DNA from: a virus
IMG/VR virus record: IMGVR_UViG_3300045988_011313
Span: 33,768 to 97,767 of that record
Direction: 5' to 3' (one strand)
DNA: 64,000 nt
In this document: one piece after another, positions 3,023-31,959 of the stretch
Layout: each line of letters starts with the position of its first letter
Position numbering within the stretch: position 1 is the first letter of the stretch
Notes under the pieces: model-generated
What the model saw: only the letters and a program-made list of their open reading frames with translations
Databases searched by the model: none
Told to the model about the DNA's origin: nothing
Made by a program: the position numbers and the translations under genes

Positions 3023-3036
3023 ATTACCTAAATTAG

Positions 3037-3109
3037 TTGCGGGGGAGAGACTCGAACTCTCAACCTCAAGGTTATGAGCCTTGCTAGCTACCATTGCTAT
3101 CACCCCACG
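3037..3109 (-). tRNA. tRNA-Met: tRNA-Met(CAT), initiator-like
   Basis: Cloverleaf drawn by eye. Anticodon loop CTCATAA, T arm GAGAG-TTCGAGT-CTCTC. Position 1-72 is a C-A mismatch, as in bacterial initiator tRNA. Confidence 0.8.
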
Positions 3110-3120
3110 ATGTATATTTG

Positions 3121-3192
3121 AGCAGATAGTGGGAATCGAACCCACACATTAACATTGGAAGTGTTACATACTAACCTTTATACTATACCTGC
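3121..3192 (-). tRNA. tRNA-Gly: tRNA-Gly(TCC)
   Basis: Acceptor GCAGGTA/TATCTGC, anticodon arm TAACA-CTTCCAA-TGTTA, T arm GTGGG-TTCGATT-CCCAC. Confidence 0.85.
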
Positions 3193-3197
3193 ATTTG

Positions 3198-3270
3198 AGT
3201 AGATAATCAGACTTGAACTGACCCCTTGACATTGGCAATGTCATATGCTAACCACTAACACCATACCTAC
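3198..3270 (-). tRNA. tRNA-Gly: tRNA-Gly(GCC)
   Basis: Acceptor GTAGGTA/TATCTAC, anticodon arm TGACA-TTGCCAA-TGTCA, T loop TTCAAGT. Confidence 0.85.
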
Positions 3271-3277
3271 ATTATAG

Positions 3278-3351
3278 AGCCTCCTGAAGGATTTGAACCC
3301 TCTCTTCCTGTTTACAAGACAGGCTTGCTAAACCATTAACACTAAGGAGGC
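3278..3351 (-). tRNA. tRNA-Thr: tRNA-Thr(TGT)
   Basis: Acceptor GCCTCCT/AGGAGGC, anticodon arm CCTGT-CTTGTAA-ACAGG, T loop TTCAAAT. Confidence 0.85.
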
Positions 3352-3355
3352 ATTG

Positions 3356-3439
3356 TAGTCTAAGAGGGATTTGAACCCTCAATCCCTAAAGGGCGAGGGA
3401 TTTTAAGTCCCTTGTGTATTCCAGTTCCACCATTAGACC
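3356..3439 (-). tRNA. tRNA-Leu: tRNA-Leu(TAA), long variable arm
   Basis: Anticodon loop CTTAAAA, long variable arm, T arm GAGGG-TTCAAAT-CCCTC. The 5' end overlaps the HNH stop codon by a few nt. Confidence 0.8.
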
Positions 3440-3900
3440 ATTTTATTTTTCCCTCTGTAATTGTCTGTCAGAGCATGACAATTAGGACATAAGAGCTGTA
3501 AATTACCTATTTCATTATTACTATTATTACCATCTTTGTGATGCAGCTCTAAAGGTATCTTTTGTCCTTGCCATTCAGACAACCCACATCTCTCACATCT
3601 ATATTCTTTTATATTTTCTGAAAGTAATCTTCTCTTTAGATTGTTTGAGTTATATCTTGAAGGATTTACAAGAATCCTACTAAGAGGGAATTTCTTAACT
3701 ACTGGAGAATATCTTTCACCAGAGTTCCATCCCTGACCTGTAAAGTGGGAAGTATCTATATTGTATAAATCAATTGCTTGATGTATAGTTCTGTAATTCC
3801 CTCCTACAGGCTTTATATGCAGGTATCTACATACTTGTGCTATACTAAGACTGTTTCTTATAGCCTCTTCATATACTTCTCTACTTCTCAGTTTTGTCAT
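3433..3900 (-). CDS. HNH homing endonuclease
   Basis: CERCG...ELHHKDGNNSNNEIGNLQLLCPNCH is a classic HNH (CxxC...HH...N...CxxC-H) motif. The gene is inserted between two tRNA blocks. Confidence 0.9.
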   Translation of the reverse strand: MTKLRSREVYEEAIRNSLSIAQVCRYLHIKPVGGNYRTIHQAIDLYNIDTSHFTGQGWNSGERYSPVVKKFPLSRILVNPSRYNSNNLKRRLLSENIKEYRCERCGLSEWQGQKIPLELHHKDGNNSNNEIGNLQLLCPNCHALTDNYRGKNKMV

Positions 3901-4346
3901 TAGTAAGGTCTTATATCACATAAGTGGAATAAGTAGTCATACTTATTGATATTCTGAATAAAGGTCTCACATTCAGATGTTATACCTTTATATATGGTCT
4001 CTTGAGGAATCTTATCATAGAATGCAATAGTAGCAGACTTAACTTCACTTATAAAGTCAAAAGCATTCAGTGCATCACTTGGAGTTCCTTTGATTACATT
4101 AGGTTGCATCTTACCAAGTATTCCCATATACCCTTCTGCAAGCCCATCCTGATAATCTGACAATATATCAAGGAACTCATCAAGATATACATGGATATTC
4201 TTCTTAGGTGCTGCCCAATGCAGATTCTTACACTTAGTCTTCCAACCTTCAAGCTGATTTAAGAAGTTGATAAAGAGCTGAGAACCAGACACTTCAGTAC
4301 TTCTGCTTGATTCCATTGGGGTAAATAGATTATCTTCTCCAAACAT
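3900..4346 (-). CDS. Dps/ferritin-like four-helix-bundle protein (putative)
   Basis: KNLHWAAPKKNIHVYLDEFLDILSDYQDGLAE resembles the Dps ferroxidase region (K..HWN..G.NF...H..LD). TAATG overlap with the HNH gene. Promoter 4367-4398 lies directly upstream. Confidence 0.45.
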   Translation of the reverse strand: MFGEDNLFTPMESSRSTEVSGSQLFINFLNQLEGWKTKCKNLHWAAPKKNIHVYLDEFLDILSDYQDGLAEGYMGILGKMQPNVIKGTPSDALNAFDFISEVKSATIAFYDKIPQETIYKGITSECETFIQNINKYDYLFHLCDIRPY

Positions 4347-4366
4347 ATTCTCTTATTTTGATGGTG

Positions 4367-4398
4367 CAAAGATAAGTATTTTAATTGAAATATGCAAG
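4367..4398 (-). promoter_or_regulatory. Bacteroidota-type promoter (cTTG-N20-TAtcTTTGCA)
   Basis: Minus strand reads cTTGCATATttcaattaaaatactTAtcTTTGCAcc. The -7 box is complementary to 4367-4374 and the -33 box to 4395-4398. It lies about 20 nt upstream of the start codon at 4346. Confidence 0.6.
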
Positions 4399-4425
4399 TA
4401 AAATACTATATTTTTTTTTTATTTT

Positions 4426-4746
4426 TTAAAAATAAAATACAGAGAGTAGAGTATAAGCTATTTTTGCCCATATACTCTGATTTATATTTAAATCTACTGT
4501 ACCTGTCCTTCTTCTTTTTATATGTAAAAAGTATAATAGATTATGTGCTCTCCATTCATTAACCATACCAAATATACTTCTCTTGTGTATAGCATAAGAA
4601 TTATCACATGTGTTTCTTATCTTCTTTAAGACATTAACCATGTCATTTATTCTCCTTATCCTATAAGAGTCTGTTATAGAAGTATTATAGGTACTTAAAA
4701 GCACATTAATAATGTACTCACTATATTTAATATTAATCATTTTCAT
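4426..4746 (-). CDS. hypothetical protein (106 aa)
   Basis: ORF track. Lies between tRNA-Leu(TAG) and the promoter. No motif recognised. Confidence 0.4.
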   Translation of the reverse strand: MKMINIKYSEYIINVLLSTYNTSITDSYRIRRINDMVNVLKKIRNTCDNSYAIHKRSIFGMVNEWRAHNLLYFLHIKRRRTGTVDLNINQSIWAKIAYTLLSVFYF

Positions 4747-4748
4747 AG

Positions 4749-4837
4749 TACCCTCTAAGAGACTCGAACTCTTACACTACTATTACTTCATGTCTGCTTC
4801 TAAGGCAGATGTGTCTACCAAATTCCACCAAGAGGGC
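4749..4837 (-). tRNA. tRNA-Leu: tRNA-Leu(TAG), long variable arm
   Basis: Acceptor GCCCTCT/AGAGGGT, anticodon arm TCTGC-CTTAGAA-GCAGA, T loop TTCGAGT. Confidence 0.85.
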
Positions 4838-5029
4838 ATATAGCCTTTGACCACCTTCGGCTATTAAAGTGAATGATACGACATTCATTAGGGGCTAGTC
4901 TTACTCTGTAAATATTATTAATATTCAGAAACCCTAAGAGTTACGTTGCTACATATAATCTAGAACTCATAGCTTTGTTAGTTCTTTTTAAGTGCTCACA
5001 TACCTTGGTTAAATATGCAAGCACTACTG

Positions 5030-5104
5030 TGGGTGCTCAAAGAATCGAACTTTGTTCTAAGGATTTTCAGTCCTCCGCAATGTAACCATACCTGCCCAAC
5101 ACCC
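5030..5104 (-). tRNA. tRNA-Phe: tRNA-Phe(GAA)
   Basis: Acceptor GGGTGTT/GAGCACC, anticodon loop CTGAAAA, T loop TTCGATT. Confidence 0.85.
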
Positions 5105-5172
5105 ATAATGACTTATTTGTGTCTCTACCCACATCACTTTCCATAAGTCAAGGACAAAGATTTCTATTGAAG

Positions 5173-5255
5173 TGGGGCAGAAAGGAATTGAACCTTAAAT
5201 AGCCTGAGGCAGTGGATTTACAGTCCACACTAATTCACCACATTAAAGCTACCCC
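5173..5255 (-). tRNA. tRNA-Tyr: tRNA-Tyr(GTA), long variable arm
   Basis: Acceptor GGGGTAG/CTGCCCC, anticodon arm GTGGA-CTGTAAA-TCCAC, T loop TTCAATT. Confidence 0.85.
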
Positions 5256-5291
5256 ATATAATATTTATTACTCACTCCAACATCAAAGGAA

Positions 5292-5399
5292 CTATATTCC
5301 AATTGGAATAGTTCCTGTAGGTGTCCAAGCATAAGACTTAGCAGCCTGTCTAAAATATGCCTTAGCACCTTTCTTAATTAATGAAATAACCTTTTTCAT
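5292..5399 (-). CDS. possible micro-ORF (35 aa) inside the tRNA array
   Basis: Hand translation gives MKKVISLIKKGAKAYFRQAAKSYAWTPTGTIPIGI*. It is below the ORF-track cutoff and has no supporting motif. Confidence 0.2.
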   Translation of the reverse strand: MKKVISLIKKGAKAYFRQAAKSYAWTPTGTIPIGI

Positions 5400-5435
5400 A
5401 ACAATTAAAAATTTGAAGTTAATAATATGTTATGT

Positions 5436-5507
5436 TCCCCCATAAGGAATCGAACCTTACTCTCCAGATTAAAAGTCTAGAGCATCCACCATCAATGCTT
5501 TGGGGGA
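5436..5507 (-). tRNA. tRNA-Lys: tRNA-Lys(TTT)
   Basis: Acceptor TCCCCCA/TGGGGGA, anticodon loop CTTTTAA, T loop TTCGATT. Confidence 0.85.
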
Positions 5508-5529
5508 GTATTTGCCAAGGTTGAGGTTG

Positions 5530-5602
5530 TGCTCCCACAAGGACTTGAACCTTGAGTCCCCTGTTTAAGAGACAGGTGCTTTAACCAATTCAGCTATAGG
5601 AG
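5530..5602 (-). tRNA. tRNA-Lys: tRNA-Lys(CTT)
   Basis: Acceptor GCTCCTA/..GGGAGC, anticodon arm CCTGT-CTCTTAA-ACAGG, T loop TTCAAGT. Confidence 0.85.
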
Positions 5603-5604
5603 CA

Positions 5605-5856
5605 TTATTTCTTTTCATACTTTTCAGACCATGCCTTAGTAATACCTGCTGATGCAAATACTCCAGCAACAGCACCTATATAAGCAGCAAGACCATTAAG
5701 GTCTGTCTGTATGGTATGATTATAACATATTTCTATTATAAGAAGTACAGCAGGAACTGATAGTAGGATTAAACCTATTAAAGTAACTGCCACTAAGAAG
5801 AAGTTCTTTGAAGAAATTCCTGTATTGTTCTTTATAAGTTTATCTATATAACACAT
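5605..5856 (-). CDS. small membrane protein (83 aa, two hydrophobic helices)
   Basis: The track ORF 5605-5883 is trimmed to the Met at 5854-5856 because the extension overlaps tRNA-Cys. Hydrophobic helices: FFLVAVTLIGLILLSVPAVLLII and LAAYIGAVAGVFASAGI. Confidence 0.5.
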   Translation of the reverse strand: MCYIDKLIKNNTGISSKNFFLVAVTLIGLILLSVPAVLLIIEICYNHTIQTDLNGLAAYIGAVAGVFASAGITKAWSEKYEKK

Positions 5857-5858
5857 AG

Positions 5859-5933
5859 ACTTGGAGGTGGGATTTGAACCCACGAATCATCAGATTTGCA
5901 GTCTGTGCCCTTAGACCACTTAGGTACTCCAAG
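5859..5933 (-). tRNA. tRNA-Cys: tRNA-Cys(GCA)
   Basis: Acceptor CTTGGAG/CTCCAAG, anticodon loop CTGCAAA, T arm GTGGG-TTCAAAT-CCCAC. Confidence 0.8.
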
Positions 5934-5937
5934 ATAG

Positions 5938-6014
5938 TACTGGCAGAGGGGATTGAACCCACATGCAACCTATTACCCTTTCTACTGTGTATAAGACAGA
6001 GGGGATATGCCAGT
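5938..6014 (-). tRNA. atypical tRNA-like gene, candidate anticodon TAT (Ile)
   Basis: Perfect 7-bp acceptor ACTGGCA/TGCCAGT and a T arm with loop TTCAATC. However, only 8 nt separate the acceptor from a 4-bp hairpin, CTGT-CTTATAC-ACAG. A 22-nt segment containing a D-loop-like TAATAGGTTG follows that hairpin. Confidence 0.5.
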
Positions 6015-6018
6015 ATAT

Positions 6019-6095
6019 TGGGGTGTTAGATGGGATTTGAACCCACGCCATAAGGAGCCACAATCCTCTGCTCTACCTGACTGAGCTACTAACAC
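6019..6095 (-). tRNA. tRNA-His: tRNA-His(GTG), 3' CCA encoded
   Basis: GTGTTAG-TA-GCTC-AGTCAGGTA-GAGC-A-GAGGA-TTGTGGC-TCCTT-ATGGC-GTGGG-TTCAAAT-CCCAT-CTAACAC, followed by C-CCA. Confidence 0.85.
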
Positions 6096-6097
6096 AG

Positions 6098-6169
6098 TGC
6101 TGATGGAAAGACTCGAACTTTCAACTACTGCCTTATGAGAGCAGCCTTCTACCATTGAAGTACATCAAC
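6098..6169 (-). tRNA. tRNA-Met: tRNA-Met(CAT), elongator type (or Ile2 if lysidine-modified)
   Basis: Acceptor GTTGATG/CATCAGC with G1-C72 paired, anticodon arm CTGCT-CTCATAA-GGCAG, T loop TTCGAGT. Confidence 0.8.
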
Positions 6170-6190
6170 TATTACTCTTCTTGACCAATG

Positions 6191-6267
6191 TTGGGATGGT
6201 GAGAATTGAACTCACCTGTAACCAACTACTCTTTCAGCTGCTTATCAGACAGAGGAGATACATCCCA
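6191..6267 (-). tRNA. atypical tRNA-like gene, candidate anticodon GAT (Ile); paralog of 5938-6014
   Basis: Perfect acceptor TGGGATG/CATCCCA and T arm GTGAG-TTCAATT-CTCAC. Shares the rearranged core of 5938-6014: TA-TCTCCT-CTGT-CTGATAA-GCAG, then a 22-nt segment containing TAGTTGGTTA, which is a D-loop-like motif. Confidence 0.5.
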
Positions 6268-6272
6268 ATATG

Positions 6273-6345
6273 CTGAGAAGATAGGAATTGAACCCATAAC
6301 TGCTGGTTTTGGAGACCAGTGCTCTACCAATTGAGCTACTTCCCA
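6273..6345 (-). tRNA. tRNA-Trp: tRNA-Trp(CCA)
   Basis: Acceptor TGGGAAG/CTTCTCA, D arm GCTC-AATTGGTA-GAGC, anticodon arm CTGGT-CTCCAAA-ACCAG. Confidence 0.85.
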
Positions 6346-6354
6346 ATTACTTAG

Positions 6355-6427
6355 TTGCAGGTAGTGGATTTGCACCACTGGTCTCCCCATTAAGGGTAGG
6401 GCGAGATTACTACTTCTCTAACCTGCT
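6355..6427 (-). tRNA. degenerate tRNA-like gene, Lys(CTT)-like, possibly a pseudogene
   Basis: Cloverleaf dimensions are normal. Three features deviate: the anticodon loop CCCTTAA has C at position 33, the T loop is TGCAAAT (G at 55), and positions 1-72 form an A-A mismatch. Confidence 0.35.
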
Positions 6428-6536
6428 AAAACATCAAATCATTGATTACTTCTTCTTATTGCACTCAGAGAACTTTCAGAAATGATGTCATCAAGTATTG
6501 CAAGCTACTTGACTAAACTTCTTGCAAAAGTTTTTG

Positions 6537-6608
6537 CGGGACCTGTAAGACTCGAACTTACATCTAAGGGTTAACAGCCCCTTGTTCTAACCTTTGAACT
6601 AAAGACCC
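6537..6608 (-). tRNA. tRNA-Asn: tRNA-Asn(GTT)
   Basis: Anticodon arm AGGGG-CTGTTAA-CCCTT, T arm GTAAG-TTCGAGT-CTTAC. One acceptor mismatch. Confidence 0.8.
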
Positions 6609-6615
6609 ATTTATG

Positions 6616-6689
6616 TTGCTCCTATTAGAATTGAACTAATGACCTTTTCCTTGTAAGGGAACTATTCTAAACCACTGAACTAAGGAGCA
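6616..6689 (-). tRNA. tRNA-Val: tRNA-Val(TAC)
   Basis: Acceptor TGCTCCT/AGGAGCA, anticodon loop CTTACAA, T arm ATTAG-TTCAATT-CTAAT. Confidence 0.85.
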
Positions 6690-6775
6690 TTGATAGGGCA
6701 GTTTCTTTAACCTCTAACTGCCCAAAAGATGGTTCAAGCAAAAGCTCAACATTATGAAAACATGAAAACATAGTG

Positions 6776-6849
6776 TGGACCTTGTGAGATTTGAACTCCT
6801 CTAAAACATTGCAAATGTCTTGTGCTAACCTGATTACACTACAAAGCCC
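6776..6849 (-). tRNA. tRNA-Ala: tRNA-Ala(TGC) with G3-U70
   Basis: Acceptor GGGCTTT/AAGGTCC gives the G3-T70 wobble that marks Ala identity. Anticodon arm AGACA-TTTGCAA-TGTTT. The T stem is weak (3 bp). Confidence 0.75.
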
Positions 6850-6854
6850 ATTAG

Positions 6855-6927
6855 TATGGGTACTTGGACTTGAACCAAGGACAACTGGCTCCCAAAGCCA
6901 GCATTCTACCTACTGAATTACACCCAT
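6855..6927 (-). tRNA. tRNA-Pro: tRNA-Pro(TGG)
   Basis: Anticodon arm CTGGC-TTTGGGA-GCCAG, T arm CTTGG-TTCAAGT-CCAAG. Confidence 0.85.
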
Positions 6928-6933
6928 ATATTG

Positions 6934-7019
6934 CGGAGAGCATTGTACTCGAAACAAATACCTTATTAGGGTACTCACTATTTAGCAGATAGGACTATCA
7001 CCTTGATAGTTTACTCTCC
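6934..7019 (-). tRNA. tRNA-Ser: tRNA-Ser(GCT), long variable arm
   Basis: Acceptor GGAGAGT/GCTCTCC, anticodon loop CTGCTAA, long variable arm, T loop TTCGAGT. Confidence 0.8.
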
Positions 7020-7060
7020 ATACTTTCCTTCACCAATATGTCAAAGAACACCTATTATTG

Positions 7061-7145
7061 CGGAGAGATGAGGTCCCGACCCCCAAGCATTTTACTGCTC
7101 CCATTGTTTTCAAGACAAGTCCCAGTCCCACTGAGTTACCTCTCC
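7061..7145 (-). tRNA. tRNA-Ser: tRNA-Ser(TGA), long variable arm
   Basis: Acceptor GGAGAGG/TCTCTCC, anticodon loop CTTGAAA. The T loop GTCGGGA is unusual. Confidence 0.7.
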
Positions 7146-7199
7146 ATTGCCTACCTACCTCTGTAGGATAGGACTTCAGTAGATTAAAAGTGGATTAGC

Positions 7200-7270
7200 A
7201 GGATGTGGGAGAATTGAACTCCAATCTTCTGATTGACAGTCAGACACATTAACCACTATGCTACACACCC
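7200..7270 (-). tRNA. tRNA-Asp: tRNA-Asp(GTC)
   Basis: Acceptor GGGTGTG/CACATCC, anticodon arm TCTGA-CTGTCAA-TCAGA, T loop TTCAATT. Confidence 0.85.
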
Positions 7271-7277
7271 TAAGTTG

Positions 7278-7349
7278 TAGAGCTATTGGGAATTGAACCC
7301 AAGTTTCTGCCTTGAGAGAGCAGTTACCTATCCACTAGTAGATAGCTCT
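7278..7349 (-). tRNA. tRNA-Glu: tRNA-Glu(CTC)
   Basis: Acceptor AGAGCTA/TAGCTCT, anticodon arm CTGCT-CTCTCAA-GGCAG, T arm TTGGG-TTCAATT-CCCAA. Confidence 0.8.
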
Positions 7350-7355
7350 ATATTG

Positions 7356-7429
7356 TATTGGGTATGGGGCTTGAACCCATAATCTCCACATTGAAAGTGT
7401 GGTGACTTAACCACTTCGTCTAACCCAAC
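7356..7429 (-). tRNA. tRNA-Glu: tRNA-Glu(TTC)
   Basis: Anticodon arm CCACA-CTTTCAA-TGTGG, T arm ATGGG-TTCAAGC-CCCAT. Confidence 0.85.
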
Positions 7430-7435
7430 ATTTAG

Positions 7436-7507
7436 TACCCCCTGAGGGAATTGAACCCCCATTAAAGGCTTAGAAGGCCCTTGCATTATCCATTATACTA
7501 AGAGGGC
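7436..7507 (-). tRNA. tRNA-Arg: tRNA-Arg(TCT)
   Basis: Anticodon arm AGGGC-CTTCTAA-GCCTT, T arm GGGGG-TTCAATT-CCCTC. Confidence 0.85.
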
Positions 7508-7524
7508 ATTTACCTTTACTATTG

Positions 7525-7597
7525 TTACCCCAATAAGACTTGAACTTATGTTACAGGAGCCAAAATCCCGTGTAATAACCAACTATACTATGGGGCA
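7525..7597 (-). tRNA. tRNA-Gln: tRNA-Gln(TTG)
   Basis: Acceptor TGCCCCA/TGGGGTA, D arm GTAT-AGTTGGTTA-TTAC, anticodon arm CGGGA-TTTTGGC-TCCTG. This is the first gene of the array in the transcription direction. Confidence 0.85.
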
Positions 7598-14585: not shown

Positions 14586-14968
14586 GGGGCATTTTTTGGT
14601 TTTGATTGCTGATTATTTAGTAAGAGAACATGCAAAGACTGATGGAAAGACATCAAAACAATAACTGGCAATACTTCTTATAGAGTTGCTGCCTAAATAG
14701 GCTGAGTAGCACTTACTTGGAAACAGAAAGGTGCAAAGCCTGAATGAAGACTAAGGCTGAGGGTCCTACTTTAAGAGCATTAATAGGCTGTGGTCTCGCA
14801 GAAGGTAACTCAACTTTTTCCTTGTTTATGGACAATAAAATAAGGTGGTGGAAATGCTGTAAATCCAGACAGACCCAGTGGGTAACTGACCACATTAAAA
14901 AGTAGTAAGCATGTGTAATTCTTTTATTAAAGATTAGTAAGACAGGGGTTCGATTCCCCTATGCTCCA
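14586..14968 (+). ncRNA. ssrA: tmRNA (SsrA), one-piece, about 383 nt
   Basis: The 5' GGGGCAT pairs with the 3' ATGCTCC to give 7 bp, including the G3-U70 wobble. T arm AGGGG-TTCGATT-CCCCT, discriminator A. The internal tag frame at 14667-14696 (GGC AAT ACT TCT TAT AGA GTT GCT GCC TAA) encodes GNTSYRVAA* and is preceded by AACAATAACT. Confidence 0.8.
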
Positions 14969-15002
14969 CAAAATAACTTTAGTATTAACTAAAAAAAAAA
15001 GT

Positions 15003-31475: not shown

Positions 31476-31959
31476 GAAAATCAGAAATGCCACACAGAGT
31501 AGTTCTAAGGGTATAACATTCAAATCCCAGTTGGAGAAGAGCATATACAACACTCTTCTTCAACAAGGATTTGAACCTCAATATGAGCCAATTACCTTTA
31601 CTTTGTGGGAGGGTTTTAAGCCTATTACCCCATATTATGACAAGGAGACTGATAAGCAGAAAATCAAAAGATTATCAGATGGCACAGACATCCGTACTTC
31701 AAAGATACTTATTCAGAAAACAGGTAAAATTGTTGGTATCAGATATACACCAGACTTTTACTTCAAGTATAATGACCTTAATGTTTATATTGAGGCAAAA
31801 GGTATTGAGAATGATGTATTTTATATCAAGAAGAAGATGTTTATAAAATATCTTGATAACCTGTACATTGAAAAAGGTAAAAAATCAATCTATTTTGAGG
31901 TATATACCAAAAAGCAACTCTTGCAGGCAATAGAAATTATCAAGAGTTATGGACAATAG
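31408..31959 (+). CDS. T7 endonuclease I-like PD-(D/E)XK Holliday-junction resolvase
   Basis: FKSQLEKSIYNTLLQQG...YTPDFYF...VYIEAKG matches the endonuclease I pattern (PDF...E-x-K-G). The start is uncertain: ATG 31408 overlaps the upstream gene by 68 nt, and GTG 31466 is an alternative. Confidence 0.7.
   Translation: MMLRLLAELQRIFLKKCSKVVNKKIRNATQSSSKGITFKSQLEKSIYNTLLQQGFEPQYEPITFTLWEGFKPITPYYDKETDKQKIKRLSDGTDIRTSKILIQKTGKIVGIRYTPDFYFKYNDLNVYIEAKGIENDVFYIKKKMFIKYLDNLYIEKGKKSIYFEVYTKKQLLQAIEIIKSYGQ

What the first reader, a model, noticed from the sequence alone, without database searches (positions are those of the whole stretch)
5938..6267. Two paralogous tRNA-like genes with isoleucine anticodons but a rearranged D/anticodon core
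Seen: the genes at 5938-6014 and 6191-6267 each have a perfect 7-bp acceptor stem and a normal T arm, and each is 77 nt long. After positions 8-9 (TA) there is no D arm. Instead, a 6-nt pyrimidine linker (TCCCCT or TCTCCT) leads straight into a 4-bp hairpin with a textbook anticodon loop: CTGT-CTTATAC-ACAG (anticodon UAU) in the first gene and CTGT-CTGATAA-GCAG (anticodon GAU) in the second. A 22-nt segment follows. It can form a short hairpin whose loop looks like a D loop (TAATAGGTTG in the first, TAGTTGGTTA in the second, both with the GG dinucleotide). The two genes share the 5' core TATCYCCTCTGTCTKATA.

Ile is the only amino acid with no canonical tRNA in the array, and these two genes carry exactly the Ile anticodons.

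Inference: these may be functional tRNA-Ile species with a non-standard arm order (acceptor, anticodon arm, D-like arm, T arm), or decoys or pseudogenes. A UAU anticodon would decode AUA, which is very frequent in this AT-rich genome.
Basis: partly seen in the sequence, partly recalled or inferred. Interest (0 to 1): 0.65.

Follow-up and report, generated by a model that had tools for sequence, protein, structure and literature searches.

The report
Rewired isoleucine tRNAs in phages
The two genes look like working isoleucine tRNAs whose inner parts are joined in a different order from every textbook tRNA, and the same rewired design is common in phages of unrelated bacteria but is missed by standard gene finders.

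Summary
Window 5938-6014(-) and 6191-6267(-) are 77-nt genes with a 7-bp acceptor stem, a T arm and textbook anticodon loops (UAU, GAU), but no D arm in the normal place. ARAGORN and the Rfam tRNA model do not call them.

They are not oddities of this genome. I collected about 160 distinct relatives from about 200 viral contigs and about 80 GenBank phages (Streptomyces, Microbacterium, Vibrio, crAss-like). All share one architecture: acceptor, U8-A9, a 3-bp helix enclosing the anticodon hairpin, a connector (usually GAAA), a single strand carrying the D-loop motif (A R N N G G N), then the T arm. All four helices covary strongly, and so does a Levitt-type pair (42-52).

Anticodons are only Ile (UAU, GAU, CAU) or Arg (UCU, CCU, UCG, ACG). 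The Arg forms carry A at the position equivalent to A20, the ArgRS determinant. In collinear crAss-like arrays, rewired and canonical tRNA-Ile replace each other slot for slot. Moving one segment back in silico makes ARAGORN of 134.

Best reading: functional tRNAs with a transposed D-loop strand. No expression or charging data exist, and I found no published description.

The parts
5938..6014 (-). X1: rewired tRNA-Ile(UAU) gene, 77 nt. It lies 4 nt after tRNA-His and 4 nt before tRNA-Cys.
   Evidence: family model 90.2 bits; same slot as canonical Ile(UAU) in cr85_1 and crAss001
6008..6014 (-). X1 acceptor stem, 5' strand (X1-7). It pairs with 5939-5945 (X70-76). The discriminator A is at 5938.
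   Evidence: sequence; all 7 pairs covary across the family
6002..6004 (-). X1 D-stem-like helix, 5' strand (X11-13, CCC). It pairs with 5976-5978 (X37-39, GGG).
   Evidence: 100% paired in 78 sequences; pair 11-39 is CG/AU/UA and pair 12-38 is CG/UA/GC/AU
5984..6000 (-). X1 anticodon arm (X15-31): U.U plus 4 bp, loop CUUAUAC, anticodon UAU at 5991-5993.
   Evidence: U15.U31 becomes C-G in divergent members.
5979..5982 (-). X1 connector GAAA (X33-36) between the anticodon arm and the 3' strand of the helix.
   Evidence: Present in all pattern-selected members (the search patterns required it). Replaced by other linkers of 4-12 nt in divergent members.
5963..5975 (-). X1 D-loop-like single strand (X40-52): U A A U A G G U U G C A U.
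   Evidence: A41, G45 and G46 were fixed by the search patterns. C50 and A51 were left free and are invariant. Pair 42-52 covaries: AU 101, GC 21.
5946..5962 (-). X1 T arm (X53-69): GUGGG UUCAAUC CCCUC, with one U.U.
6191..6267 (-). X2: rewired tRNA-Ile(GAU) gene, 77 nt. It lies 4 nt after tRNA-Trp and 21 nt before tRNA-Met(CAU).
   Evidence: family model 90.5 bits; same slot as canonical Ile(GAU) in relatives
6261..6267 (-). X2 acceptor stem, 5' strand. It pairs with 6192-6198. The discriminator A is at 6191.
6255..6257 (-). X2 D-stem-like helix, 5' strand (CUC). It pairs with 6229-6231 (GAG).
   Evidence: U12-A38 here against C12-G38 in X1 is a compensatory change
6237..6253 (-). X2 anticodon arm, loop CUGAUAA, anticodon GAU at 6244-6246.
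6232..6235 (-). X2 connector GAAA.
6216..6228 (-). X2 D-loop-like strand: U A G U U G G U U A C A G.
6199..6215 (-). X2 T arm: GUGAG UUCAAUU CUCAC.

Best explanation
X1 and X2 are the phage's tRNA-Ile(UAU) and tRNA-Ile(GAU). They belong to a widespread class of Ile and Arg tRNAs, found so far only on phage or phage-like contigs, that has a re-threaded core.

Secondary structure (shown): a 7-bp acceptor stem; U8 A9; a 3-bp helix (11-13 with 37-39) that encloses a normal anticodon arm (U.U plus 4 bp, 7-nt loop C U NNN A N); a bulged connector (GAAA); a 13-nt single strand carrying the D-loop signature (U A R N N G G N N R C A Y); a normal T arm; and a discriminator base.

Three-dimensional reading (inferred): the 3-bp helix stacks on the anticodon stem, as the D stem does in a normal tRNA. 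Strand 37-40 takes the place of residues 10-13 and leads into A14, R15, G18, G19 and N20 equivalents that reach the T loop. Strand 10-13 takes the place of residues 22-25. C14 stands in for residue 26, N32 for 44, G33 for 45 and N52 for 48. In effect the segment 'D 5' strand plus D loop' has been transposed from before the anticodon arm to after it, and the L shape, U8-A14, R15-Y48 and G18G19-T loop contacts are kept.

Function (inferred): the genes are co-transcribed with the array, cut out by RNase P and 3' processing, given CCA, charged by the host IleRS, and used to read AUA (X1) and AUU/AUC (X2). Those codons make up about 6.8% of this phage's codons.

Why phages favour the rewired form is not established. 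My leading guess is escape from host nucleases or enzymes that recognise the canonical tRNA core.
For: 1. Synteny. In collinear crAss-like arrays the order is Trp-[Ile GAU]-Met-His-[Ile UAU]-Cys/Lys. All four combinations of canonical and rewired genes occur at the two Ile slots.

2. Structure. In a gapless 78-sequence alignment 98.2% of cells pair, and 18 of 20 pairs show compensatory change. The covariation score is 0.912 against 0.227 for shuffles (0 of 500 reach it) and 0.13-0.17 for slid controls. RNAalifold finds the same fold on its own.

3. Tertiary signature. Pair 42-52 covaries as A-U (101) or G-C (21), like the Levitt pair R15-Y48. Position 52 lies immediately 5' of the T stem, as residue 48 does.

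4. Identity coupling. All 18 members with C35 (Arg anticodons) have A at X47, the A20 equivalent, and G or A as discriminator. Of the members with A35, 114 of 116 have U47, and their discriminator is A. This matches the published bacterial identity sets (PMC9976931).

5. Anticodon restriction. Only UAU, GAU, CAU, UCU, CCU, UCG and ACG occur. Whole-collection scans of IMG/VR for N[GU]N, N[AC][AC], NAG and RCU found nothing. A JGI metagenome scan for N[GU]N gave only 2 chance hits. Divergent members found by covariance model, with no constraint on the anticodon, are again Ile or Arg.

6. Complementarity. Of 213 rewired genes, 203 have no canonical tRNA with the same anticodon in the locus. In large arrays, X-GAU goes with canonical UAU and X-UAU with canonical GAU. 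When both are rewired, neither canonical form is present (13 of 13).

7. Context. The nearest canonical tRNA is on the same strand in 193 of 194 cases, at a median distance of 12 nt. In the window the spacers are 4 nt. Some members encode CCA.

8. In-silico un-permutation restores a cloverleaf that ARAGORN calls with the expected anticodon in 134 of 134 cases, against 0 of 134 for the native sequences.

9. Demand. No other Ile tRNA exists in the window's array, while Ile codons run at 68 per 1000.
Against: - There are no expression, processing, aminoacylation or structure-probing data.
- The three-dimensional equivalence is reasoning from connectivity, not a model.
- Most family members were collected with sequence patterns that fix parts of the core, so the invariance of GAAA, U40 A41 and G45 G46 is partly by construction. 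It is relaxed only by the structural scan and the covariance-model searches.
- The single-sequence minimum-energy fold of X2 prefers a different hairpin, and the fold of X1 is no more stable than shuffles.
- The mapping of the 3-bp helix onto D-stem positions is ambiguous. By sequence it resembles 11-13 with 22-24. By position it corresponds to 23-25 with 10-12.
- A few members break the A20/U20 rule.
- Why only Ile and Arg, and why phages prefer this form, is unexplained.
Confidence: 0.8

Rival explanations
1. They are tRNA-like decoys or sponges. They mimic the anticodon loop and elbow of tRNA-Ile or tRNA-Arg to soak up a host tRNA-targeting nuclease or enzyme, and they are not used on the ribosome.
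For: Phages face many tRNA-cleaving defence systems, and phage tRNAs are known to evolve resistance to them (PMC10264068; PMC12445682; PMC13056530). The unusual core could prevent normal function while keeping the elements that are recognised.
Against: A decoy would not need aaRS identity elements that switch with the anticodon (A20 and the discriminator). It would not need a perfect acceptor stem with discriminator. It would not be mutually exclusive with the canonical isoacceptor in arrays that otherwise cover all amino acids. In the window it would leave the array without any Ile tRNA.
Confidence: 0.1
2. They are functional tRNAs, but of the D-arm-lacking type. The 13-nt strand would be just a long variable loop and the 3-bp helix an extension of the anticodon stem, giving a mitochondrial-like 'boomerang' without a canonical elbow.
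For: The Rfam tRNA model, where it matches relatives at all (29-31 bits), aligns them in exactly this way: D arm deleted and an 18-nt insertion in the variable region.
Against: The strand keeps the D-loop signature A-R-N-N-G-G. Pair 42-52 covaries like R15-Y48. Position 47 tracks Arg or Ile identity as residue 20 does. U8, G53-C61 and the UUCRA T loop are all retained. Helix lengths add up to the canonical 4+1+5 layers.
Confidence: 0.07
3. The transcript is rearranged at the RNA level (cut and re-ligated) into a canonical tRNA, as happens with permuted or split tRNA genes.
For: Some of these phages encode RNA ligase near their tRNA arrays (A3Wally). Un-permutation in silico gives a perfect cloverleaf.
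Against: It would need three breaks and re-joining in a new order, with no terminal helix or bulge-helix-bulge motif to guide it. The gene ends already form the acceptor stem. No bacterial system of this kind is known to me (own knowledge).
Confidence: 0.02
4. They are decaying pseudogenes or chance tRNA-like sequence.
For: Standard tRNA finders reject them.
Against: There are about 160 distinct sequences in about 200 contigs, with compensatory changes in every helix, and near-identical copies across phages of Actinomycetota, Bacteroidota and Vibrio.
Confidence: 0.01

Closest known systems
Canonical bacterial and phage tRNA-Ile and tRNA-Arg (Rfam RF00005)
   Same: 7-bp acceptor stem, discriminator, U8, 5-bp T stem with UUCRA loop, G53-C61, 7-nt anticodon loop with U33 and A37, the GG motif, R15-Y48-type covariation, A20 in the Arg forms, location in tRNA arrays, and total length of about 77 nt.
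   Different: The D loop is not closed by the D stem. The stem encloses the anticodon arm instead, and the D-loop strand lies 3' of it, where the variable loop normally is. The Rfam model scores 29-31 bits for some relatives and nothing for the two window genes.
D-arm-lacking mitochondrial tRNAs (for example mt-tRNA-Ser(AGY) and armless nematode or mite tRNAs; review PMC7609411)
   Same: Three-way junction secondary structure with no hairpin at the D-arm position, yet still used in translation.
   Different: The mitochondrial forms have lost the D-loop elements and often the G18G19-T loop contact, and they need co-evolved partners. Here every core element is kept but moved, and the RNA must work with ordinary bacterial synthetases and ribosomes.
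Permuted and split tRNA genes (Cyanidioschyzon merolae, Nanoarchaeum; own knowledge)
   Same: The order of tRNA segments in the gene differs from the canonical order.
   Different: Those are rearranged only at the gene level, and processing yields a canonical mature tRNA. Here the ends are normal and the mature RNA itself would be non-canonical.
Viral tRNA-like structures (for example the TYMV TLS; own knowledge)
   Same: An L-shaped tRNA mimic built with a different backbone threading, recognised by a synthetase.
   Different: Those are 3' ends of RNA virus genomes with a pseudoknotted acceptor stem, and they are not used for decoding. Here it is a free-standing gene with a true anticodon arm.
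Other natural non-canonical tRNAs (tRNA-Sec, tRNA-Pyl, allo-tRNAs with 8/4 or 9/3 branches; PMC5389517, PMC7609411)
   Same: Deviations from the 7/5 cloverleaf that still function. Some are found in phages.
   Different: Those change the lengths of helices or loops, not the order of the elements.
Phage tRNAs that resist defence nucleases (PMC10264068; P2-OLD, PMC12445682)
   Same: Phage-encoded isoacceptors with structural deviations, such as shorter anticodon stems. The rewired forms also have only 4 Watson-Crick pairs plus U.U in that stem.
   Different: The known cases are point changes within a canonical cloverleaf. No nuclease is known that the rewired core would evade.

Membership tests
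tRNA (functional elongator tRNA) | 7-bp acceptor stem with an unpaired discriminator | tested here: met
   Perfect in X1 and X2. 98.2% of cells pair across the family, and all 7 pairs covary.
tRNA (functional elongator tRNA) | T arm: 5-bp stem, 7-nt loop U54 U55 C56 R57 A58, G53-C61 | tested here: met
   G57-C65 and UUCRA are invariant. X1 has one U.U in the stem.
tRNA (functional elongator tRNA) | Anticodon arm with a 7-nt loop, U33 and purine 37 | tested here: met
   The loops are CUUAUAC and CUGAUAA. The stem covaries. Its fifth pair is U.U, or C-G in divergent members.
tRNA (functional elongator tRNA) | D arm between residue 9 and residue 26, closing the D loop | tested here: not met
   There is no hairpin at that position. 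Helix 11-13/37-39 encloses the anticodon arm. The Rfam alignment deletes the D arm.
tRNA (functional elongator tRNA) | Core tertiary signature: U8, A14, R15-Y48, G18 G19 | tested here: met
   All are present but displaced: U8, A41, pair 42-52 covarying, G45 G46. Whether they make physical contact was not tested.
tRNA (functional elongator tRNA) | Detected by standard tools (ARAGORN; Rfam RF00005 gathering score of 29 bits) | tested here: not met
   The window genes are not called. ARAGORN of 146 family members, both with false boundaries. GC-richer relatives score 29.1-30.8 bits, against 40-72 for nearly all canonical neighbours.
tRNA (functional elongator tRNA) | Synthetase identity elements consistent with the anticodon | tested here: met
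   Ile forms have A73, A35, U36, A37 and U at the position equivalent to 20. Arg forms have C35, U/G36, the A20 equivalent and G/A73.
tRNA (functional elongator tRNA) | Expressed, processed, CCA-tailed, aminoacylated and used on ribosomes | not testable with these tools
   Only indirect evidence: array context, 4-nt spacers, and complementarity with canonical isoacceptors.
D-arm-lacking (mitochondrial-type) tRNA | Loss of the D-loop elements, with the D arm replaced by a simple connector | tested here: not met
   The D-loop motif, and a helix equivalent to the D stem, are retained elsewhere in the molecule.
Permuted or split tRNA gene | Gene termini lie inside the tRNA, and the mature RNA is canonical after processing | tested here: not met
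   The gene termini are the acceptor-stem ends. No processing motifs were seen. The mature RNA was not observed.
Viral tRNA-like structure (TLS) | 3'-terminal element of an RNA genome with a pseudoknotted acceptor stem | tested here: not met
   This is a free-standing gene in a dsDNA phage tRNA array with a regular acceptor helix.

The most novel reading that the evidence does not exclude
The rewired core is an adaptation and not a frozen accident. On this reading the genes encode translationally active topological isomers of tRNA: the same L shape and the same synthetase and ribosome contacts, but with a backbone path that makes them poor substrates for host tRNA-targeting immunity, or for a phage-made host-tRNA shutoff. 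That would explain why they have spread among unrelated phages and repeatedly displaced canonical tRNA-Ile and tRNA-Arg.
Probability: 0.3. Interest if true: 0.95.

Novelty: new variant of a known kind. Interest (0 to 1): 0.88.

Why it matters
- If these RNAs are charged and used, the tRNA fold tolerates a change in the order of its core segments. As far as I could find, that has not been reported for any natural tRNA.
- Such a result would bear on how synthetases, RNase P, the CCA-adding enzyme, EF-Tu and the ribosome read tRNA shape as opposed to backbone connectivity.
- It would offer a natural scaffold for orthogonal tRNA design.
- It would show that current tRNA finders under-count phage tRNA sets. 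This window would be scored as lacking tRNA-Ile. About 80 GenBank phage records leave the gene unannotated, one labels it tRNA-Leu, and one has it under a spurious CDS.
- The question is directly testable, because cultured Streptomyces, Microbacterium and Vibrio phages carry the genes.

Tried and rejected
1. **An ordinary cloverleaf that was overlooked.** Rejected. ARAGORN at relaxed thresholds and Rfam at E<=10 find nothing in the window. The two ARAGORN calls in the family use flanking sequence as a false acceptor stem.
Rejected on covariation.
3. **Hammerhead-like reading of CUGAUAA...GAAA.** There is no stem II between the two motifs, and X1 has CUUAUAC. Rejected by inspection.
4. **A small intron inside the D loop.** Removing it would leave no anticodon arm. 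Rejected by inspection.
5. **Other amino-acid identities in this architecture.** Five whole-collection scans found none.
6. **Cellular genomes.** A scan of one genome for each of 185,579 species gave 7 hits. All are on MAG contigs, and at least one of those (362,763 bp) matches an IMG/VR viral contig in length. No isolate bacterial genome was hit.
7. **Literature.** Nine full-text searches and two reviews of non-canonical tRNAs gave no description of this arrangement. Absence from this library is not proof that it has never been described.
8. **Origin.** A single transposition, or tandem duplication followed by random loss, explains the segment order but needs the D-stem pairs to flip. A sequence-based mapping needs two rearrangements. 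Left undecided.
Full report
**1. What is in the window**

The window is from a crAss-like phage with 36% G+C. Its closest GenBank relatives are cr85_1 and crAss001 (Steigviridae), at about 75% identity over the tRNA region.

A tRNA array runs on the minus strand from 3036 to 7597. The two reported genes are X1 = 6014->5938 and X2 = 6267->6191. Each is 77 nt. Each has a perfect 7-bp acceptor stem, U8 A9, a hairpin with a textbook anticodon loop (CUUAUAC or CUGAUAA), a T arm and an A discriminator.

Standard tools do not call them:
- ARAGORN at default settings, and relaxed to -ps85, finds nothing.
- The Rfam tRNA model finds nothing at E<=10.

The genes are packed into the array like any tRNA: His, 4 nt, X1, 4 nt, Cys; and Trp, 4 nt, X2, 21 nt, Met.

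With low-scoring Thr and two Ser genes counted, the array covers 19 amino acids canonically. Ile is the one left out, although Ile codons make up 68 per 1000 (ATA 21.6) in the long ORFs.

**2. Positional orthology**

In cr85_1 and crAss001 the same two slots hold canonical tRNA-Ile(GAU), between Trp and Met, and tRNA-Ile(UAU), after Met/His.

Among collinear crAss-like contigs from IMG/VR, all four combinations occur at these slots:

| Contigs | GAU slot | UAU slot |
|---|---|---|
| window, L025 | rewired | rewired |
| L019, L032 | canonical | rewired |
| L014, L015, L038 | rewired | canonical |
| cr85_1, crAss001 | canonical | canonical |

The canonical Ile(UAU) of L044 has the acceptor stem ACUGGUA. 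That is almost the same as X1 (ACUGGCA) and identical to the rewired gene of L064. This suggests the core was exchanged within a retained frame.

**3. A large family**

Pattern scans of IMG/VR based on the shared core returned about 200 loci. They yielded 146 distinct sequences, 134 of them exactly 77 nt and alignable without gaps. Only 4 of the 66 hits to the first pattern were chance matches.

Acceptor stems and T stems differ widely among members, while the core is conserved.

In GenBank phages, three searches with family members found:
- about 80 records in all, 77 of them Streptomyces phages of 130-136 kb (Stanwilliamsviridae; SEA-PHAGES BE cluster);
- Microbacterium phage A3Wally;
- Vibrio phage 424E50-1;
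- several crAss-like genomes.

The gene is unannotated in these records, with two exceptions. EGole labels it 'tRNA-Leu, codon UUA'. In the Vibrio phage it lies under a small 'hypothetical protein' CDS on the other strand.

A scan of one genome for each of 185,579 bacterial and archaeal species gave only 7 hits. All are on metagenome-assembled contigs that are probably phage.

**4. Structure**

On a 78-sequence alignment (A2), RNAalifold predicts the following:
- acceptor stem, 1-7 with 70-76;
- a 3-bp helix, 11-13 with 37-39;
- the anticodon stem, 16-19 with 27-30, nested inside that helix;
- the T stem, 53-57 with 65-69.

Counting pairs for that structure plus a 42-52 pair gives the results below:

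| Measure | Value |
|---|---|
| Cells paired | 98.2% |
| Pairs with compensatory change | 18 of 20 |
| Covariation score | 0.912 |
| Same score, shuffled | 0.227 (0 of 500 shuffles reach the observed value) |
| Same score, slid controls | 0.13-0.17 |

The new helix is 100% paired. Pair 11-39 is C-G 51, A-U 22, U-A 5. Pair 12-38 is C-G 52, U-A 19, G-C 4, A-U 2. X1 (C-G) and X2 (U-A) already differ by a compensatory change at 12-38. One member also has G13-C37.

A structure-only scan of the held loci returned 142 sequences, and all were family members.

Members found with a covariance model built from A2 are more divergent:
- U15.U31 becomes C15-G31, so this is the fifth pair of the anticodon stem (equivalent to 27-43).
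- The GAAA connector is replaced by other linkers of 4-12 nt (AGAA, UUUA, CGUUAAUC, GCGUUUAUAAUA). It therefore behaves as a bulged connector.

**5. tRNA core signature in a new place**

The strand after the helix reads U40 A41 R42 N N G45 G46 N47 N48 R49 C50 A51 N52.
- C50 and A51 were left free in the searches and are still invariant.
- Positions 42 and 52 covary as A-U (101) or G-C (21). This is what the Levitt pair R15-Y48 does, and position 52 lies immediately 5' of the T stem, as residue 48 does.
- U8, G53-C61 and UUCRA are kept.

From the connectivity I infer the following equivalences:

| Rewired position | Canonical equivalent |
|---|---|
| 37-40 | 10-13, leading into A14, R15, G18, G19, N20 |
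| 10-13 | 22-25 |
| C14 | 26 |
| 15-31 | 27-43 |
| N32 | 44 |
| G33 | 45 |
| N52 | 48 |

On this reading the segment [10-21] has been moved from between residues 9 and 22 to between residues 47 and 48. The helix layers (4+1+5) are unchanged.

As a test, I moved X37-49 back between A9 and X10 and dropped A34-36. ARAGORN at default settings then called 134 of 134 as tRNAs with the expected anticodon. It called 0 of 134 native sequences and 0 of 134 in a deletion control.

Where the Rfam tRNA model matches relatives at all (29.1-30.8 bits, gathering score 29), it deletes the D arm and inserts 18 nt in the variable region.

**6. Evidence for use in translation**

- **Anticodons.** UAU 88, GAU 34, CAU 4, UCU 10, ACG 8, UCG 1, CCU 1. 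Scans of all IMG/VR for N[GU]N, N[AC][AC], NAG and RCU anticodons in this core found nothing. The JGI metagenome scan for N[GU]N gave two chance hits. Thirteen divergent members found by covariance model are again Ile, Arg or CAU. GCU and ACU (Ser) are absent although UCU and CCU (Arg) are present.
- **Identity coupling.** Every C35 member has A at X47, and 114 of 116 A35 members have U. A20 with C35 is the bacterial ArgRS determinant set, and U20 is listed for IleRS (PMC9976931). The discriminator is A for Ile and G or A for Arg. The anticodon loops equal the usual loops of each isoacceptor: CUGAUAA, CUUCUAA, CUACGAA.
- **Complementarity.** 203 of 213 rewired genes have no canonical tRNA with the same anticodon in the locus. 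The table below covers arrays with at least 12 canonical tRNAs.

| Rewired genes in the array | Arrays | With canonical GAU | With canonical UAU |
|---|---|---|---|
| GAU only | 21 | 3 | 15 |
| UAU only | 24 | 18 | 1 |
| both | 13 | 0 | 0 |

- **Context.** The nearest canonical tRNA is on the same strand in 193 of 194 cases, at a median distance of 12 nt. Some members encode CCA.
- **Variation among near-identical crAss copies of X1.** It falls mainly in the two T-loop positions that are also variable in canonical tRNAs.

**7. Interpretation**

The best-supported reading is that X1 and X2 are the phage's working tRNA-Ile(UAU) and tRNA-Ile(GAU), members of a class of Ile and Arg tRNAs with a transposed D-loop strand, so far seen only on phage or phage-like contigs.

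- **Shown:** the secondary structure, the conservation, the anticodon and identity coupling, and the slot-for-slot exchange with canonical genes.
- **Inferred:** the L-shaped fold, processing, charging by host synthetases, and decoding.

The reason for the rewiring is open. Phage tRNAs are known to diverge under pressure from tRNA-cleaving defences (PMC10264068). Phage tRNA-Thr resists P2-OLD partly through a shortened anticodon stem (PMC12445682). A core with a different backbone path could be an extreme form of this, but nothing here tests that idea.

The restriction to Ile and Arg fits single-base anticodon shifts (UAU to UCU, then to UCG, CCU or ACG) from one ancestor, followed by acquisition of A20. 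It is also consistent with demand for AUA and AGA codons. In this window Arg is coded almost only by AGA and AGG.

**8. Comparison and novelty**

In function these RNAs look like ordinary elongator tRNAs. In form they fail one defining feature of the cloverleaf, the D arm at positions 10-25.

They differ from each of the nearest known classes:
- D-armless mitochondrial tRNAs have lost the D elements, whereas here the elements are moved.
- Permuted or split tRNA genes yield a canonical mature RNA.
- Viral tRNA-like structures are not decoders.
- tRNA-Sec, tRNA-Pyl and allo-tRNAs change lengths, not order.

Nine full-text searches and two reviews gave no description of this arrangement. I therefore rate it a new variant of a known kind, with the caveat that the library is incomplete.

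**9. Limits**

- Sampling was driven by sequence patterns.
- No experiment or 3D model was available.
- tRNAscan-SE could not be run.
- Hosts are known only for the GenBank isolates.

Noticed in passing
window 3278-3351 (-): tRNA-Thr(UGU). Rfam scores it 51.9 bits, but ARAGORN misses it at default settings and calls it only at -ps90.
   Followed up: partly
window 6933-7019 (-) and 7060-7145 (-): Two class II tRNA-Ser genes (GCU, UGA), syntenic with tRNA-Ser of crAss001. ARAGORN finds them only at -ps90, and the Rfam tRNA model is silent at E<=10. They appear to be atypical Ser tRNAs.
   Followed up: partly
window 14586-14969 (+): A tmRNA gene (tag peptide GNTSYRVAA; Rfam 71.9 bits) lies next to two further tRNA-Arg genes on the plus strand of this crAss-like phage.
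   Followed up: no
window, ORFs of 250 aa or more: CGN arginine codons are almost absent: 7 of 12,102 codons. AGA runs at 32.5 and AGG at 13.1 per 1000. The array carries Arg(UCU) twice and Arg(CCU) but no CGN decoder.
   Followed up: no
window 31556-31621 (-): A 20-bit match to the rewired-tRNA model that has the 3' half (AAAGGUAAUUGG...GGUUCAAAUCC) and a weak acceptor stem but lacks the anticodon hairpin. It lies inside ORFs. It may be a relic or a chance match.
   Followed up: partly
L095 3238-3458 (Microbacterium phage A3Wally MZ150783, about 93852-94072): An unannotated 221-nt stretch between two tRNA-Arg genes matches bacterial RNase P RNA class A over the whole model (72 bits, E = 2e-20), below the gathering score of 100. 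It may be a reduced phage-encoded RNase P RNA.
   Followed up: no
L095 (A3Wally MZ150783) tRNA annotations: The GenBank tRNA labels disagree with ARAGORN throughout. The anticodon appears to have been read as a codon; for example 'tRNA-Ser(tcc)' is tRNA-Gly with anticodon UCC.
   Followed up: no
L094 301-377 (Streptomyces phage EGole MK494112 75265-75341): This is the only GenBank record found that annotates a rewired gene. It is labelled 'tRNA-Leu, codon UUA', whereas the anticodon loop reads GAU.
   Followed up: yes
L101 (JBAZIW010000001.1) and L077 (IMGVR_UViG_3300029288_000055): A 362,763-bp contig deposited as a 'Candidatus Paceibacterota' MAG has the same length as an IMG/VR viral contig and carries a rewired tRNA in a 20-tRNA array. 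It is probably a jumbo phage binned as a bacterium.
   Followed up: no
L015, L025 (crAss-like IMG/VR contigs): ARAGORN reports unusual anticodons in arrays collinear with the window: Cys(ACA) and Asn(AUU).
   Followed up: no
L080, L087, L152, L148, L117: Some phage loci carry two or three rewired genes of different subfamilies, for example GAU + GAU + CAU, GAU + GAU + UAU, or ACG + UCU.
   Followed up: partly
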